Assembly (NCBI GenBank): GCA_018238625.1
Contig: JABCSY010000074.1
Span: 1-19,403 of the forward strand
DNA length: 19,403 bases
Direction of reading: 5' to 3'
Source: Promethearchaeota archaeon
Lineage (GTDB): Archaea > Asgardarchaeota > Lokiarchaeia > Sigyniarchaeales > SOKP01
In this document: one piece after another, positions 3,199-12,743 of the stretch
How the letters are laid out: each line of letters opens with the position of its first letter
Numbering within the stretch: position 1 is the stretch's first letter
The notes under the pieces: generated by a model
Seen by the model: only the letters and a program-made list of their open reading frames with translations
Told to the model about the DNA's origin: nothing
Database searches by the model: none
Program-made: the position numbers and the translations under genes

Positions 3199-3954
3199 AT
3201 GAAATATAAGATCTGTATCGCAATTCCAATTAAATCTGCTGATCTTAATATAAATAGAAAATTAATAGAAATATCGCTAGAAAAAAAGCCTGATTTAATT
3301 GAATTTAGATTTGATTACATAAATGAAGTAAAATTTATCACTTTCTCCTTTTTAACAGAATTGTTGAGTCTTATCACTCCTAAAATACCAATAATCTTTA
3401 CTTTTAGGAGAATTCAAGAGCGAGGTCAATATAATCTTAATAAAGATGAACGATTACAAATTTTAAAGTTATTGGTTGAAGCAAAACCCGATTATTTGGA
3501 TATAGAAATGAAGTCTGATATTAAGATTTTGAAAATAATTACAAATTTAGCTTACAAAAACAATGTAGATTTAATTTTCTCTTTTCATGACTTTGATGAT
3601 ACTCCAACATATGAAGAAACAATTTCTCTTATAGATAAGTTTGAGGATAAGTTGGTTCAAGAATGCTCTGTAGATTCAGATAAAATACATGAAAGCGTCT
3701 TTAAATTAATATTTACTCCTCAAAAATTCGAGGATAATTTAAACGTTTTAAAAATTTGTAGAACAATTTCACAAGACGGCAAAAAGATAGTATGTTTTGC
3801 TATGGGCGAATTGGGGATTTTTTCCAGAATTATCTGCGTTAAATTTGGTTCACTATGGACATATGCTTCTCTAAGAGACAAAACAGCTCCTGGACAAATT
3901 AACATCAAAACTTTACGAGAAATGCATCAATTATTATTTAATTCCAATTCTTGA
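3199..3954 (+). CDS. aroD: Type I 3-dehydroquinate dehydratase
   Basis: EFRFD, IIFTFR, DYLDIE, SFHDF, FAMGELG..SR and TAPGQ motifs. Confidence 0.92.
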   Translation: MKYKICIAIPIKSADLNINRKLIEISLEKKPDLIEFRFDYINEVKFITFSFLTELLSLITPKIPIIFTFRRIQERGQYNLNKDERLQILKLLVEAKPDYLDIEMKSDIKILKIITNLAYKNNVDLIFSFHDFDDTPTYEETISLIDKFEDKLVQECSVDSDKIHESVFKLIFTPQKFEDNLNVLKICRTISQDGKKIVCFAMGELGIFSRIICVKFGSLWTYASLRDKTAPGQINIKTLREMHQLLFNSNS

Positions 3955-5449
3955 GATTAATGACATTTCGATCTAAATTAATATCAAAATGAACGGGGAA
4001 TTTTTGACCAACAAGTTCTTGTTTCTCTAATTTAATTAAGATATCTGGTTCAGCATTAATAAAAGCTATAGTACGACGATTACTTTCAAGAGTTCCTATT
4101 ACAATCCCTTGCTTGGGTACGCCAGTTCGATCATAAGTTATTGTATATCCTTCAATGGTAAGTTTTCCATTAGCTTGTTCTATGGGTTTTGGTAATTGTT
4201 TTTCTAAGATAGATTGTTGTATTTTAGCATTATTTTGTTCACCCCATTGTATAAGAGGTGGGTCAGTCCCGTAAATACCAAAGGACTGTTTTGTATTATA
4301 TCCTCCATTTGCTATAACCATTATTTTTAATAAAGGGTTTTTACGAACAAGATTTACAGCAGAAACGATTGCGTGTAAAGAATAATTGCTCCATGGCCCA
4401 CCAAAATATGGAAGCCCACCTGTAATCGATAATGAGCGAGGATCATTTTCCTTTATACCTATTTCCTTTTTAATGATTTCTACAATAGACGGAAAACAGC
4501 TATAAATGTCAAATAAATCAATATCATCAAGTTTAAGTCCAGCTTGTTCTAATGCTAGAATTGCTCCTTCTTTTGCTGCTGGTGAATTATTAAGCTTTGG
4601 ACGTTGGGTAATATTAAAAATGTTTTTAAAGTCTGCACCCCCCATTGGATAAATCCAGAGTTTAGAATCAATTTTGAGTTTTTTAGCGATTCTCTTACTT
4701 GTCATTATTAATGCGCTGGATTGATCTACAAATACATTAGAGCACATAAGTTTAGTATAAGGGTGAGTTATATATCTGTTTTTAAAAGTTGGAGTTATAA
4801 TTTCTTTAGCAGTATAAGAGCGTTGAGTCCAAGCATAGGGGTTATTAGATGCAATCTTTGAGAAATGTTCAAAAATTTTACTTATATGATTTTTATGTTC
4901 TTCCAAGCTTCTACCTGAAGCAGCGCGTATAGCCGTCTCAAAAATGGCGTATGTAAGAAGAGGAAATATCAATCTATATCTATTTGCAAATTCGTTTATA
5001 CCATTCCATAATTTACCCTCCATATATTTAGGAGTCTTCAATTTAGGCCAATTTAATTCAAATTTCCCCTTTTTTGCCTTATATTTGGAATAAGAAGCTT
5101 CTCCACCCGTAATTAAGATTGCTTGACTTTTTCCAGAAGTTATAGCCTTCGCTGCCCTATTTACTAACATTTGAGGACTATCGCCCCCATCCGGTAAATA
5201 AACCTTATGTGTGGGGTTTAAACAGAGTATCTTGCTAAGCTCTTCTGGCGCATCCTCGTAGGACCAACTATTAATATTTACCATATAAACTGAATCAATT
5301 ACATTCTTTAAATTGGGTATTCCAGCATCAGTTAAAGCTATCTTACATGCTTTAGCCATGAGGTTTAGTGGATCAAGGGGATCAAGAGTGTGTTTATCTT
5401 GTGTAAACTGTCCAGCTCCTACAATTATTGGATATGATTTATTACTCAT
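3938..5449 (-). CDS. Thiolase-like protein (acetyl-CoA acetyltransferase-like, with extra C-terminal domain)
   Basis: PIIVGAGQ, GGDSPQ, NPYAW, PYTKLM, DIYSCFPS, TGGLPYFGGP and ANGG motifs. The 3' end overlaps aroD convergently by 17 bp. Confidence 0.85.
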   Translation of the reverse strand: MSNKSYPIIVGAGQFTQDKHTLDPLDPLNLMAKACKIALTDAGIPNLKNVIDSVYMVNINSWSYEDAPEELSKILCLNPTHKVYLPDGGDSPQMLVNRAAKAITSGKSQAILITGGEASYSKYKAKKGKFELNWPKLKTPKYMEGKLWNGINEFANRYRLIFPLLTYAIFETAIRAASGRSLEEHKNHISKIFEHFSKIASNNPYAWTQRSYTAKEIITPTFKNRYITHPYTKLMCSNVFVDQSSALIMTSKRIAKKLKIDSKLWIYPMGGADFKNIFNITQRPKLNNSPAAKEGAILALEQAGLKLDDIDLFDIYSCFPSIVEIIKKEIGIKENDPRSLSITGGLPYFGGPWSNYSLHAIVSAVNLVRKNPLLKIMVIANGGYNTKQSFGIYGTDPPLIQWGEQNNAKIQQSILEKQLPKPIEQANGKLTIEGYTITYDRTGVPKQGIVIGTLESNRRTIAFINAEPDILIKLEKQELVGQKFPVHFDINLDRNVINLKNWN

Positions 5450-5549
5450 ATTTGATTGATTAATGTAAAAATTATTCTAAAAATTAATAATGAAAAGAAT
5501 AAGAAACTCTTATCAATTATTATTTAATAATTAGATAAGAAATTTTTTT

Positions 5550-5753
5550 TTATTGTTCTCTATCAAATACAGCGCCACATGTACCGCATTTTACACGTTT
5601 TTTTTATATATGTAAAGAATCTTTACTTATTTTATAAACGGGGGCGCCCTGCATTGAATAATAGAGTACTTGTGTTTTATCGGGTTCTTCGTGTAATTTC
5701 CGAGGATTTTCTTCCCCACAACTTCCACATTTAGTTCTTTTAGTTTCTGTCAT
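5550..5753 (-). CDS. Small zinc-ribbon protein (57 aa after removal of a 30-nt insert); not in the ORF track
   Basis: Manual translation gives MTETKRTKCGSCGEENPRKLHEEPDKTQVLYYSMQGAPVYK-ISKDSLHI*K-KRVKCGTCGAVFDREQ*. The two CxxCG knuckles are in the same frame on either side of an internal TAA (5606-5604). Confidence 0.8.
5602..5631 (-). other. Candidate 30-nt bulge-helix-bulge (tRNA-type) intron in mRNA
   Basis: Central helix UUAU(5637-5634)/AUAA(5607-5604), AAA bulges at 5633-5631 and 5603-5601, and inner stem AUAAGUAAAG/CUUUACAUAU (9 of 10 paired) with an AUU loop. Cutting after the second bulge nt on each strand removes 30 nt, deletes the stop and keeps the frame. Confidence 0.6.
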
Positions 5754-5790
5754 TTTTTTTTCTCGAAGGTGTTTTGAACAAATAATAGGT

Positions 5791-5798
5791 TTTATAAA
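5791..5798 (-). promoter_or_regulatory. Putative TATA box for the zinc-ribbon gene
   Basis: TTTATAAA about 38 nt upstream of the ATG at 5753. The AT-rich background limits specificity. Confidence 0.35.
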
Positions 5799-5877
5799 TT
5801 TAAATTTGGGTTTTACAATAAATTTGCGTTATACCATCTATAAAAATAAAAACACACGCTTTATTAATTTCACATTT

Positions 5878-6402
5878 TTATTTCATTGTTGCCTTAATAA
5901 TTTCTCCTATAATCTCGTCAATTGTTTTATCTGTGGTGTTAATAATAATTTCTGCTGACATATTATAATAAGGTTCTCTTTGTTTCAATGCGCTTTCGAT
6001 TTCTTTCATTGGACCTTCTTTGTCGATCACTGGTCTAGTTTCTTTCCCATCTTTCATTACTCTATTATAAATTTCTTTTGAGCTAGCTGTTAATAAAACG
6101 ATATGACAGGTTTTTTTTAAATTTTCTACATTTACTTTGTTTAAAACAATTCCTCCCCCGCACGATATAACAGCTTTTTTAGATTTTGCTGCCTTCTTGC
6201 ACGCTTCAACTTCATATTCTCTAAATTTATCTTCTCCATCTTCCGAAAAGATTATAGGGATTGATTTACCTGCCATCTCTACAATTAGTTGATCGGTTTC
6301 AATAAATTTATATTCTTTTCCTAAATATTTCTTCAATTCCTTTCCTACCGTAGATTTGCCTGTAGCCATAAAACCAATCAACGCAATAGATTCTTTAATC
6401 AT
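5878..6402 (-). CDS. aroK: Shikimate kinase (bacterial AroK/AroL NMP-kinase fold)
   Basis: IGFMATGKSTVG, IF...GE..FR.YE, VISCGGG, RP and REPYY motifs. Confidence 0.92.
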   Translation of the reverse strand: MIKESIALIGFMATGKSTVGKELKKYLGKEYKFIETDQLIVEMAGKSIPIIFSEDGEDKFREYEVEACKKAAKSKKAVISCGGGIVLNKVNVENLKKTCHIVLLTASSKEIYNRVMKDGKETRPVIDKEGPMKEIESALKQREPYYNMSAEIIINTTDKTIDEIIGEIIKATMK

Positions 6403-6454: not shown

Positions 6455-7009
6455 TCATTTCATTGAAAATCCGTGATTTCCTAAAACACCCTTTTGTAAA
6501 CCTATGTAATTTCCATTAATATATGCGAAGCAATTAAATTTTTCAGGGTCTAACCTATTATTCGTTACAAATCGCGAATCAGAATGAGTGGCAACCACTT
6601 CTCCAAAATAACACACATGAGAACCTAGTTCTATTCGTTTTATTACTTTACACTCCATATTCCATGGAAATTCTTTGACCATAGGGACTTGAACTACGAT
6701 ACCTTTTTCTTTAGTTAGGTTTAAATCTTCCCATTTATTCACATCTCTTCCAGAACGCGTCCCACAATAATCCATTTCTCTCAATTGGTCTTTTGTAGGG
6801 TAATTGATCACAAACTCTCCATGTTTTTCAATTAATTTGTAGGAATGGCGCCTAGGTTGTAATGAAATTGCGATAATTGGAGGTTTCATACATACTTTAC
6901 CAACGTAAGCGAGAGTAATTAAATTCGCTTCCTCACCAATCCCTACAGATATGACCGCCGCAGGCATTGGAAACATCGTAATTCCCGTATTAAGAGAAAT
7001 CTTATTCAT
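6455..7009 (-). CDS. Flavin reductase family protein (flavoredoxin/DIM6-NTAB-like)
   Basis: FPMPAAVIS, RHSY..I....EFVIN.P, DYCG..SGRDVNK, ECKV and GSH..YFGEVV motifs. Confidence 0.9.
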   Translation of the reverse strand: MNKISLNTGITMFPMPAAVISVGIGEEANLITLAYVGKVCMKPPIIAISLQPRRHSYKLIEKHGEFVINYPTKDQLREMDYCGTRSGRDVNKWEDLNLTKEKGIVVQVPMVKEFPWNMECKVIKRIELGSHVCYFGEVVATHSDSRFVTNNRLDPEKFNCFAYINGNYIGLQKGVLGNHGFSMK

Positions 7010-12251: not shown

Positions 12252-12743
12252 ATGGATATAATTGAAGGGTATGCCTACATCCTTGGTGACGATATTAGCA
12301 CAGACGACATCATTCCGAGTCATACATTGACTATAAGAGATGAAAATGAAATGGTTAAACACGCTTTAGAATTTATAGACCCTTACTTTTCCAAACATGT
12401 TGACAGAGGAAATATTATTATAGCTGGAGAGAATTTTGGAACAGGAAGTTCTCGTGAAGAAGCAGTCTATGTATTCAAAATTTTGGGAATAAAAGCAATT
12501 ATTGCCAAATCTTTTGCAAGAATTTATTTTAGGAACTTAATAAATAACGGCATTCCAGCAATTACTTTAGAATGGGAATCTGATAATTTTACGAAACAAG
12601 ATAATATAGAAATTTCTTTGGAAAAAGGTGTTCTAATAAACAAATCAAAAAATTTAACTATCAACTTTAAAAAAATACCAAAATTCCTAACAGGTATTAT
12701 AGATAGCGGAGGAATCATAAACCAATTAAAAAAAAAACTTTAA
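12252..12743 (+). CDS. leuD: 3-isopropylmalate dehydratase/homoaconitase family small subunit
   Basis: GDDISTDDIIP, AGENFGTGSSRE and SFARIYFRN..NNG motifs; adjacent to the large subunit. Confidence 0.85.
   Translation: MDIIEGYAYILGDDISTDDIIPSHTLTIRDENEMVKHALEFIDPYFSKHVDRGNIIIAGENFGTGSSREEAVYVFKILGIKAIIAKSFARIYFRNLINNGIPAITLEWESDNFTKQDNIEISLEKGVLINKSKNLTINFKKIPKFLTGIIDSGGIINQLKKKL

What the first reader, a model, noticed from the sequence alone, without database searches (positions are those of the whole stretch)
5602..5631. Candidate bulge-helix-bulge (tRNA-type) intron interrupting a protein-coding zinc-ribbon gene
Seen in sequence: the minus strand reads ...CCC GTT TAT AA|A ATA AGT AAA GAT TCT TTA CAT ATA TAA AA|A AAA CGT GTA AAA TGC GGT ACA TGT. 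An in-frame TAA separates the first CGSC knuckle from the second, in-frame CGTC knuckle. The RNA folds into a central 4-bp helix UUAU/AUAA, each strand followed 3' by AAA. These enclose a 10-position inner stem (AUAAGUAAAG/CUUUACAUAU, one A-A mismatch, AUU loop). The outer helix is imperfect (CGU with ACG, two extra As), so the motif is relaxed (BHL-like). Established: archaeal splicing endonuclease EndA cuts after the second nt of each 3-nt bulge and RtcB ligates. The well-known mRNA example is the cbf5 intron of crenarchaeotes. Applying that rule removes exactly 30 nt, including the stop, and gives ...QGAPVYKKRVKCGTCGAVFDREQ* (57 aa). Inference: EndA-dependent mRNA splicing in an Asgard archaeon, possibly an on/off switch because the unspliced mRNA yields only a half zinc finger. 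That would be conceptually similar to Ire1/RtcB-type non-spliceosomal splicing. Caveats: the helix is all A-U, and a one-nt-shifted register would excise 28 nt and break the frame.
Basis: partly seen in the sequence, partly recalled or inferred. Interest (0 to 1): 0.9.

Follow-up and report, generated by a model that had tools for sequence, protein, structure and literature searches.

The report
Mini-intron splitting an Asgard zinc-ribbon gene
A 30-base stretch carrying a stop codon interrupts a tiny zinc-ribbon gene of an Asgard archaeon, and comparison with many relatives indicates it is a tRNA-type (bulge-helix-bulge) intron cut out of the mRNA, a kind of intron so far documented inside only one other archaeal protein gene.

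Summary
On the minus strand, 5602-5631 is a 30-nt insert with an in-frame TAA between the two CxxC knuckles of a 57-codon gene.

Intronless homologs lack exactly these 10 codons. Seven diverged versions of the insert exist, all 30 nt and all with stops. In insert-bearing genes exon 2 is as constrained as in intronless genes (pN/pS 0.20 vs 0.18).

The proposed fold is kept with covariation: a 4-bp helix, 3-nt bulges and a 9-10-bp inner stem (87.8% of cells paired vs 33-61% slid). A 32-nt, frame-shifting version at the same site is restored exactly by the cut-after-bulge-nt-2 rule.

In a sister genus, 35 genomes carry a second, 29-nt intron. It splits the invariant Met codon (AU|G) and has strong covariation (97.5% paired).

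The host encodes a two-subunit EndA and RtcB.

I obtained no RNA evidence. The outer exon-exon helix is absent, so the motif is relaxed (HBh').

Verdict: very probably a real EndA-type mRNA intron, a new member of a kind known from crenarchaeal cbf5. Confidence is about 0.78.

The parts
5632..5753 (-). Exon 1: ATG (5753-5751) to the first two bases of the Lys-41 codon. It encodes the first CxxC knuckle and the invariant LYYSMQG.PVY block.
   Evidence: sequence, ORF; conserved in 30 other genomes of the genus.
5634..5637 (-). Ha: the exon strand (UUAU) of the central 4-bp helix.
   Evidence: 4/4 pairs with Hb; the helix is 92.9% paired over 7 variants, with UUAU/AUAA changing to GUAC/GUAC in L054.
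5602..5631 (-). The 30-nt intron, in the register cut after the second base of each bulge. It holds the third base of bulge 1, the inner stem 5630-5621 / 5617-5608, the loop 5620-5618, Hb 5607-5604 and two bases of bulge 2. The in-frame TAA is at 5606-5604.
   Evidence: It is absent from intronless homologs. Covariation. Model R1 hits only this place in the own genome.
5550..5601 (-). Exon 2: the third base of Lys-41, then KRVKCGTCGAVFDREQ and the stop (5552-5550). This is the second CxxC knuckle. There is no ATG/GTG/TTG of its own.
   Evidence: In insert-bearing genes pN/pS is 0.20 against 0.18 in intronless genes.

Best explanation
Window 5602-5631 (minus strand) is a 30-nt archaeal bulge-helix-bulge type mini-intron inside the coding sequence of a 57-residue zinc-ribbon protein.

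Proposed mechanism, with each step marked as shown or inferred:
1. The pre-mRNA folds so that the last exon-1 bases (UUAU) pair with the intron's 3' segment (AUAA). An A-rich 3-nt bulge follows each strand, and a 10-position intron stem closes the 5' bulge. The pairing is shown by covariation.
2. The host's two-subunit splicing endonuclease EndA cuts after the second base of each bulge. The genes are shown to be present. The cutting is inferred.
3. RtcB joins the exons. The gene is present. The joining is inferred.
4. This recreates the AAA Lys codon and the reading frame seen in intronless relatives. This is shown in silico.

The motif is the relaxed HBh' form, because the exon-exon outer helix is missing.

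The intron is one of at least three intron positions in this small gene across the family. They are present in some lineages and precisely absent in close relatives. No function of the intron itself is indicated.
For: (1) Exact indel. In the alignment of 21 of the 36 database hits, 16 full-length proteins lack exactly the 10 codons. In the genus, 29 of the 31 genomes with a match have uninterrupted genes of about 165 nt. Two (own and G047) have an insert with a stop.

(2) Recurrence. There are seven distinct 30-nt variants (window, L036, L049, L054, L056, L059, L060). All have in-frame stops at varying codons, and L049 has two in a row.

(3) Exon 2 stays under selection. pN/pS is 0.199 in insert-bearing genes and 0.182 in 20 intronless genes, at pS about 0.84. 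Exon 2 has no start codon.

(4) Structure. 87.8% of 98 cells are paired, against 33-61% with partners slid. 7 of 14 pairs show changes on both sides, and 0 of 500 shuffles reach this. The same register gives H 4/4 in 6 of 7 variants. L060 gives H 4/4 and stem 10/10 two bases upstream.

(5) A 32-nt version at the same site (L096) has the same UUAU/AUAA and AAA bulges and an unrelated 8-bp stem. The cut rule restores frame and a PVYK-TLLKC junction like intronless PVYK-TLIKC. Model R1, not trained on it, finds it at E 1.9e-4.

(6) A second intron occurs in the same gene. It is 29 nt long, in 35 genomes of a sister genus, with H 4/4 in 34 of 35. Only one cut pair restores the gene, and it rebuilds the invariant Met codon from AU + G. 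97.5% of 363 cells are paired against 16-51% slid, 7 of 11 pairs change on both sides, and 0 of 500 shuffles reach this.

(7) Machinery. There are two EndA paralogs of about 200 aa. One is closest to A. pernix chain 3p1z_B (8e-35), with Tyr/His/Lys and a KPR loop aligned to the loop holding K44. The other has Ser in place of the catalytic His. RtcB is present. Passages in PMC5829648 state that Asgard archaea have (alpha-beta)2 EndA with the L1 loop. Passages in PMC3241643 show that loop gives broad specificity. Passages in PMC2738675 give the cut between bulge bases 2 and 3 for cbf5.

(8) The insert is real DNA (run X2).
Against: - There is no RNA evidence. The two RNA runs laid do not cover the junction, so removal at RNA level is inferred.
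- The window's own helices are all A-U, and its MFE fold is not better than shuffles.
- The outer exon-exon helix is absent, so the 3' cut site is not in a closed 3-nt bulge.
- The A-run makes five registers equivalent for the window, so register agreement is a weak test there.
- L060 needs a register 2 nt upstream. L080's site-B insert reaches only H 3/4 in the register with the good stem.
- All seven close variants are exactly 30 nt, a multiple of three, which an intron does not require.
- The sequences are related, so shuffle controls overstate significance.
- A genome-wide scan gave no sign of further mRNA introns in this genome.
Confidence: 0.78

Rival explanations
1. Translational bypass (hopping). 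The ribosome leaves the mRNA at the AAA Lys codon and lands on an AAA 30 nt downstream, as in phage T4 gene 60 or yeast mitochondrial byps. No RNA splicing is involved.
For: The window insert is flanked by AAA on both sides. L054 has a 9-nt direct repeat (UGUACAAAA) at the exon-1 end and the insert end. A stem-loop lies in the gap.
Against: The codon after the would-be take-off site is a sense codon (AUA/GUA), not a stop. In L036 the in-frame landing codon would be AGA. The 29-nt intron of the same gene splits the Met codon. In 34 of 35 genomes the unspliced reading is AUA/AUU, so hopping would give Ile where all intronless homologs have Met, and no matching take-off/landing codon pair exists there. 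The covarying 4-bp helix with 3-nt bulges is what EndA needs, not what bypass needs. That bypass needs matched codons and a following stop is from my own knowledge of T4 gene 60, not from a call.
Confidence: 0.05
2. A DNA insertion that killed or truncated the gene. The 30 nt is a small insertion or duplication, the cell makes only the 49-residue half finger, and exon 2 is a decaying remnant.
For: Gene callers report the truncated forms (P0003, P0009, P0021, P0025). The insert is scattered on the gene tree: 6 changes on 55 rows, no more clustered than shuffles (100 of 500 as low), as recent independent events would be. A-rich microhomology lies at both ends.
Against: Exon 2 is intact and in frame in all 7 variants, with pN/pS 0.20 at near-saturated synonymous change. 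The inserts themselves have diverged while keeping pairing. The 32-nt and 29-nt versions leave exon 2 in another frame, yet the knuckle reads straight on in 33 of the 35 genomes with the 29-nt intron. In the other two it is intact behind a second insert. There is no consistent target-site duplication across variants. The element is single-copy: own genome 1 hit, genus 2 of 42 genomes.
Confidence: 0.07
3. Stop-codon read-through or recoding. The insert is translated, giving a 67-residue protein with a 10-residue loop.
For: The read-through product scores 26.2 bits against TIGR02098 (MJ0042-type zinc finger, cut-off 20.9), with the match running through the insert. All seven close variants are multiples of three.
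Against: Stops are TAA, TGA and TAG, at codon 5 or 9 of the insert, and L049 has TAA TGA in tandem. A 32-nt version and the 29-nt and 31-nt introns shift the frame. Substitutions in the insert follow base pairing, not codon position. Intronless homologs match the related Pfam models only over the second knuckle.
Confidence: 0.02

Closest known systems
cbf5 pre-mRNA intron of Crenarchaeota (Watanabe 2002; Yokobori 2009, PMC2738675, passages read)
   Same: It is a short BHB-type intron inside a protein-coding sequence. The motif is often relaxed. The hosts have hetero-oligomeric EndA. The cut is predicted between bulge bases 2 and 3. Presence and absence are patchy among relatives (gain and loss).
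   Different: The host lineage is different (Asgard/Promethearchaeota by record labels). The gene is different (a 57-residue zinc ribbon of no curated family). At least three intron positions occur in one tiny gene, and some genomes hold two introns. For cbf5, splicing was shown by cDNA and in vitro cleavage. Here nothing is shown at RNA level.
Non-canonical tRNA introns with relaxed HBh'/BHL motifs, cut by (alpha-beta)2 EndA with the Crenarchaea-specific (L1) loop (PMC3241643, PMC5829648, passages read)
   Same: Size (29-32 nt) and architecture match: a 4-bp helix, a 3-nt bulge and an inner helix, with one outer helix missing. The required enzyme type is the same and is encoded by this genome. 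This genome's tRNA genes are also intron-rich: 11 of the 19 genes ARAGORN finds.
   Different: The exon context is an mRNA, not a tRNA body. Model searches found no copy of these introns in tRNA genes or elsewhere.
BHB intron in the 5' UTR of HVO_1309 mRNA, Haloferax volcanii (PMC7714728, passages read)
   Same: It is an EndA substrate in an mRNA.
   Different: That one lies in the untranslated leader and does not interrupt a reading frame. It was shown experimentally.
Ire1/RtcB unconventional splicing of HAC1/XBP1 mRNA (own knowledge, not from a call)
   Same: Splicing of an mRNA by a protein endonuclease plus an RNA ligase, changing the reading frame or product.
   Different: The nuclease (Ire1) and its recognition motif are unrelated, and that splicing is stress-regulated. 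No regulation is indicated here.

Membership tests
Archaeal BHB (EndA-dependent) intron | Central 4-bp helix between an exon segment and the intron's 3' segment | tested here: met
   Window UUAU/AUAA pairs 4/4. The helix is 92.9% paired over 7 variants, with a both-sides change to GUAC/GUAC. The site-A intron is 99.2% paired over 33 sequences.
Archaeal BHB (EndA-dependent) intron | Two 3-nt bulges on opposite strands, each closed by helices on both sides (strict hBHBh') | tested here: not met
   The 5' bulge is closed by H and the inner stem. The 3' bulge is closed only by H, and the outer exon-exon helix has 1 of 4 pairs (2 of 4, not contiguous, in 4 of the 7 variants). This fits the relaxed HBh' class, not the strict motif.
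Archaeal BHB (EndA-dependent) intron | Cuts after the second base of each bulge give a functional joined RNA | tested here: met
   In silico only. The rule restores the homolog-like junction and frame for the 30-nt, 32-nt and 31-nt and 29-nt introns. For the 29-nt intron it is the only cut pair that works, and it rebuilds the invariant AUG.
Archaeal BHB (EndA-dependent) intron | Host encodes a splicing endonuclease able to cut relaxed motifs, and an RtcB ligase | tested here: met
   Two EndA paralogs are present. One is catalytic-type with the loop aligned to A. pernix K44. The other lacks the catalytic His. RtcB scores 556.8 bits. Enzyme activity was not tested.
Archaeal BHB (EndA-dependent) intron | Intron is removed from the transcript in vivo, or cut in vitro | not testable with these tools
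   The RNA runs X17 and X19 have no contig across 5601-5632.
Programmed translational bypass element | Matched take-off and landing codons, with a stop or unreadable codon right after take-off | tested here: not met
   The next codon is AUA/GUA. The L036 landing codon would be AGA. Site A has no matched pair and splits a codon.

The most novel reading that the evidence does not exclude
This tiny gene records ongoing gain, loss and copying of EndA-type introns inside protein-coding sequence in Asgard archaea.

Each intron carries a 3' segment complementary to the exon bases just upstream of its insertion point. In one genome (G248) a relative of the 29-nt intron sits a second time, 31 nt long, 18 nt downstream, after the same six exon bases (CAGUAU).

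This would fit introns that spread to new sites by pairing with the target, for example by reversal of cleavage and ligation on RNA followed by copying back into DNA. It would address how such introns arrive, which the 2026 preprint on Asgard tRNA introns calls the central open problem. It would do so in the archaeal lineage closest to eukaryotes.
Probability: 0.2. Interest if true: 0.9.

Novelty: new member of a known kind. Interest (0 to 1): 0.8.

Why it matters
A passage in PMC7714728 (2020) states that cbf5 of Crenarchaeota is the only BHB intron reported in an archaeal mRNA besides the Haloferax 5'-UTR case described in that paper. My six literature searches found no report of one in an Asgard protein gene.

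If splicing is confirmed, this gives four things:
- A second protein-coding host gene, and the first in Asgard archaea.
- A gene with several intron positions and natural intron-plus and intron-minus alleles. That is a compact system to test what a broad-specificity EndA accepts in an mRNA.
- A hint on how such introns move.
- A practical warning: gene callers report the truncated exon-1 peptide for these genes. Small interrupted genes may therefore be mis-annotated in Asgard genomes.

Tried and rejected
**Thermodynamic fold of the window RNA alone.** It is not better than shuffles, so it is useless for an all-A-U motif.

**ARAGORN on the window.** It finds no tRNA.

**Rfam on 5300-6000.** Nothing lies at the intron. 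There is one chance-level hit elsewhere (E 0.2).

**Pfam, NCBIfam and fold search for the protein's identity.** All Pfam hits are below cut-off. The TIGR02098 hit on the read-through form was judged uninformative, because stops and frame shifts exclude translation of the insert. The AlphaFold2 model has pLDDT 83.7, but Foldseek against the PDB finds nothing at E below 0.7.

**RNA evidence.** The run search listed 2 runs on record as RNA and 2 uncertain.
- I laid X17, X19, X20 and the DNA run X2.
- No RNA contig covers the junction. One 74-nt fold-back contig of X17 ends at 5634 and says nothing.
- So there is no support and no refutation from RNA.

**Multicopy or mobile element idea.** Model R1 hits only this locus in the own genome and 2 of 42 genomes of the genus. 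R2 finds only the gene's own introns in 5 genomes. In each genome only 150 of about 4,000-6,000 first-look candidates were scored.

**Genome-wide search for other ORF-merging HBh' motifs in G000.** There were 93,087 motifs. The true cut rule gave 1064 merges, against 997-1108 for four decoy offsets, and there was no excess at any stringency. The top candidate on C199 is false, because the real gene is on the other strand. The window's own intron would not pass this filter (short exon 2, stem mismatch), so sensitivity is low.

**Genus genomes without a match.** In the five I checked (G014, G002, G055, G042, G051), only paralogous zinc-ribbon domains were found. The ortholog was not found with this query.

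**Shifting L060 by 2 nt in an alignment.** MAFFT put it back in the sequence-based register, so the counts use the unshifted register.

**Rows dropped.**
- 15 of the 36 hits were not aligned.
- Loci whose gene failed my regular expressions (for example L012, L018, L020) were not analysed further.
- Duplicates L115/L093 and L116/L092 are the same genomes.

**Closed or unseen sources.**
- Supplements of papers are closed. Those of the 2026 preprint and of PMC5829648 might list non-tRNA BHB candidates that I could not see.

Full report
**1. What is in the window**

Reading the minus strand, an ORF starts at 5753 and encodes MTETKRTKCGSCGEE...LYYSMQGAPVYK. It then reads ISKDSLHI and a TAA at 5606-5604. 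The same frame continues with KKRVKCGTCGAVFDREQ and a stop at 5552-5550.

- UUAU (5637-5634)
- AAA (5633-5631)
- a 10-position stem (5630-5621 with 5617-5608, one A-A mismatch)
- loop AUU (5620-5618)
- AUAA (5607-5604)
- AAA (5603-5601)

Cutting after the second base of each AAA removes 5631-5602, which is 30 nt, and leaves a 57-codon frame. A contig from an independent DNA run covers 5501-5681 without a difference. The insert and its A8 run are therefore real DNA.

**2. Is the fold more than chance?**

On energy alone it is not: z is +0.38 against shuffles.

As a motif at a place fixed by homology, it is. In this 32% GC genome, a 4/4 central helix plus at least 9 of 10 inner-stem pairs at spacing 30 occurs at 4.0e-5 of 8.56 million positions.

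**3. Homologs**

A six-frame search of 41 related genomes, and then of all 42 genomes of the genus, found the gene in 31 of the 42. In 29 of these it is an uninterrupted match of about 165 nt. Only the window's genome (TAA) and G047 (TGA) have a stop inside.

The protein database gave 36 hits, of which I aligned 21:
- 16 are full-length proteins of 56-64 residues that lack exactly the ten residues between PVYK and KR(I/V)KC.
- Four are truncated gene calls that end inside an insert at the same place.
- One (P0032) has an odd C-terminus.

A degenerate DNA pattern for the exon-1 end followed by an Ile/Val/Met codon was scanned in two collections.
- Metagenome contigs: 17 stretches, 7 of them insert-bearing.
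- Species-representative genomes: 8 stretches, one insert-bearing and identical to G047.

Together with the window this gives seven distinct 30-nt inserts. All carry stops: TAA, TGA or TAG, at the fifth or ninth codon of the insert, and TAA TGA in tandem in L049. All are followed by an intact, in-frame second knuckle.

**4. The gene is alive**

| Set | Region | pN/pS | pS |
|---|---|---|---|
| 7 insert-bearing genes | exon 2 | 0.199 | 0.84 |
| 7 insert-bearing genes | exon 1 | 0.124 | not computed here |
| 20 close intronless genes | exon 2 | 0.182 | not computed here |
| 20 close intronless genes | exon 1 | 0.118 | not computed here |

Exon 2 has no ATG, GTG or TTG, so it cannot be translated on its own. 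The pairs are not independent, and part of the divergence could predate the inserts. However, the inserts themselves have diverged, which argues for long residence.

**5. Structure conservation**

- 87.8% of 98 cells are paired, against 33-61% when partners are slid by 1-3 columns.
- 7 of 14 pairs show changes on both sides.
- None of 500 shuffles reaches any of the five measures, except that 2 of 500 reach the count of pairs with a change on both sides.

The central helix changes from UUAU/AUAA to UUAU/GUGA, UUAU/GUAA and GUAC/GUAC.

A script over all product-preserving registers shows the same register with H 4/4 and stem 8-9 of 10 in six variants. L060 instead has H 4/4 and a perfect 10-bp stem two bases upstream.

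The outer exon-exon helix is essentially absent (one adjacent pair).

**6. A frame-shifting version at the same site**

A phylum-wide search with an intronless homolog (400 genomes, 168 with a match) led to G254 (L096). Its insert at the same position is 32 nt. It has the same UUAU/AUAA and AAA bulges, but an unrelated, G-C-containing 8-bp stem and a 9-nt loop.

The cut rule removes 32 nt and restores the frame and a PVYK-TLLKC junction. This matches intronless relatives such as PVYK-TLIKC. Model R1, built from the seven 30-nt variants, finds this sequence at E 1.9e-4 and does not hit two intronless genes (best E 0.58).

This excludes read-through. It also shows that the rule predicts the frame where the register is not ambiguous.

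**7. A second and a third intron in the same gene**

In the sister genus g22, 35 genomes gave hits to residues 1-35/37 only. I fetched all 35.

Each has a 29-nt insert after ...UAC AGU AU. Exon 2 (G CAG GG. ... QGTPVY..KCG.CG) is intact in the +2 frame.

- The central helix (CAGU/GCUG and variants) is 4/4 in 34 of 35 genomes.
- Among all cut pairs with at least 3 of 4 helix pairs, only one restores the conserved block (6 loci examined).
- That cut rebuilds the Met codon, which is invariant in all aligned intronless homologs, from AU plus an invariant G.
- In 34 of 35 genomes the unspliced reading would be AUA or AUU.

Pair counts on 33 distinct sequences:
- 97.5% of 363 cells are paired, against 16-51% slid.
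- 7 of 11 pairs show changes on both sides (23 cells).
- 0 of 500 shuffles reach this.

G265 carries this intron plus a 30-nt insert near the window's site. The best-stem register there has only 3 of 4 helix pairs, so its exact borders are uncertain.

G248 carries the 29-nt intron plus a related 31-nt copy 18 nt downstream, in the Tyr codon (UA|C). This copy follows the same six exon bases, CAGUAU (at E 3e-5, 74).

**8. Machinery**

The genome has two EndA-domain genes of 200 and 201 residues.
- The first is closest to A. pernix chain 3p1z_B (8.2e-35). It keeps Tyr, His and Lys, and has SKPR aligned to the EKPR of the loop that holds K44. Passages of PMC3241643 show that this loop confers broad specificity and that K44 is critical.
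- The second has Ser where the catalytic His aligns.

This fits the (alpha-beta)2 enzyme that PMC5829648 (passages) reports for Asgard archaea, and that the 2026 preprint 10.64898/2026.10.13.758758 (passages) infers in 44 of 60 Asgard genomes.

RtcB is present.

ARAGORN finds only 19 tRNA genes in this 98%-complete genome, 11 of them with introns of 5-35 nt. This is in line with heavily interrupted tRNA genes.

**9. Distribution and mobility**

On a tree of the exons (147 columns, 55 rows) the insert label needs 6 changes. Only 2 of them are forced by well-supported branches, and the label is no more clustered than shuffled labels. The gene is too short to separate repeated precise loss from repeated gain.

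The introns are not multicopy.

A decoy-controlled scan for other ORF-merging motifs in this genome found no excess. Such mRNA introns are therefore rare here, or escape that filter.

**10. Rivals**

- Bypass translation fits the AAA...AAA flanks of the window. It does not fit the sense codon after take-off, the AGA landing in L036, or the split Met codon of the 29-nt intron.
- A dead or truncated gene does not fit the constraint on exon 2 across 7 + 35 lineages.
- Read-through does not fit tandem stops and frame-shifting lengths.

**11. What remains unshown**

- No transcript data cover the junction.
- Cleavage by EndA and ligation by RtcB are inferred from the motif and the gene content.
- The protein's function is unknown. 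It is a zinc ribbon with three strands, it matches no curated family, and it has no significant structural neighbour.

**12. Comparison and novelty**

The closest known case is the cbf5 intron of Crenarchaeota. It shares the type of motif, the cut rule, the enzyme type and patchy presence (PMC2738675, passages).

A 2020 paper states that this was the only BHB intron reported in an archaeal mRNA besides the Haloferax 5'-UTR case (PMC7714728, passage). Six full-text searches found no report for Asgard protein genes. Subscription journals and supplements were not searchable.

I therefore file it as a new member of a known kind. Confidence in the mechanism is about 0.78, and interest is high.

Noticed in passing
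L079-L116 (35 genomes of sister genus g22), e.g. L079 296-331 (+): A 29-nt intron at a different site of the same gene splits the invariant Met codon (AU|G). It shows strong covariation (97.5% of cells paired).
   Followed up: yes
L110 (G248:C20, minus strand), about 12485-12522 of the contig: There is a second, 31-nt relative of the 29-nt intron, 18 nt downstream in the same gene, after the same six exon bases CAGUAU. This looks like an intragenic copy.
   Followed up: partly
L080 (G265:C52): One 57-codon gene holds two inserts: the 29-nt intron and a 30-nt insert near the window's site. The borders of the second are ambiguous, with the central helix 3/4 in the register that has a 9-bp stem.
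   Followed up: partly
L052 and L057 (metagenome contigs): Two diverged copies of the zinc-ribbon gene lie about 370 nt apart on the same strand (tandem paralogs). Both are intronless.
   Followed up: no
G000 C118, C138, C148; G051, G042, G002: A similar CxxC...CxxC zinc-ribbon module sits at the start of open frames of 350-450 residues. These are paralogous fused forms.
   Followed up: no
whole genome G000: ARAGORN finds only 19 tRNA genes in a 98%-complete genome, 11 with introns. Most tRNA genes are probably too interrupted to be detected.
   Followed up: no
P0032: A database homolog ends ...PVYKNNAISYIIVKKEN instead of the second knuckle. It may be another interrupted or frame-shifted allele.
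   Followed up: no
window 5634-5680 (run X17 record 3): A 74-nt contig of an RNA run covers exon 1 and folds back on itself at 5634, two bases before the predicted 5' cut. It is probably an assembly artefact and proves nothing.
   Followed up: no
window 5554-5753 read through: The read-through product passes the NCBIfam cut-off for the MJ0042-type zinc finger, with the match running across the insert. I judged this a coincidence of a low-information profile.
   Followed up: partly
window 3938-5449, 5878-6402, 6455-7009 (minus strand): The neighbours are a thiolase-like protein, shikimate kinase and a flavin reductase-like protein. They give no obvious functional link to the zinc-ribbon gene.
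   Followed up: partly
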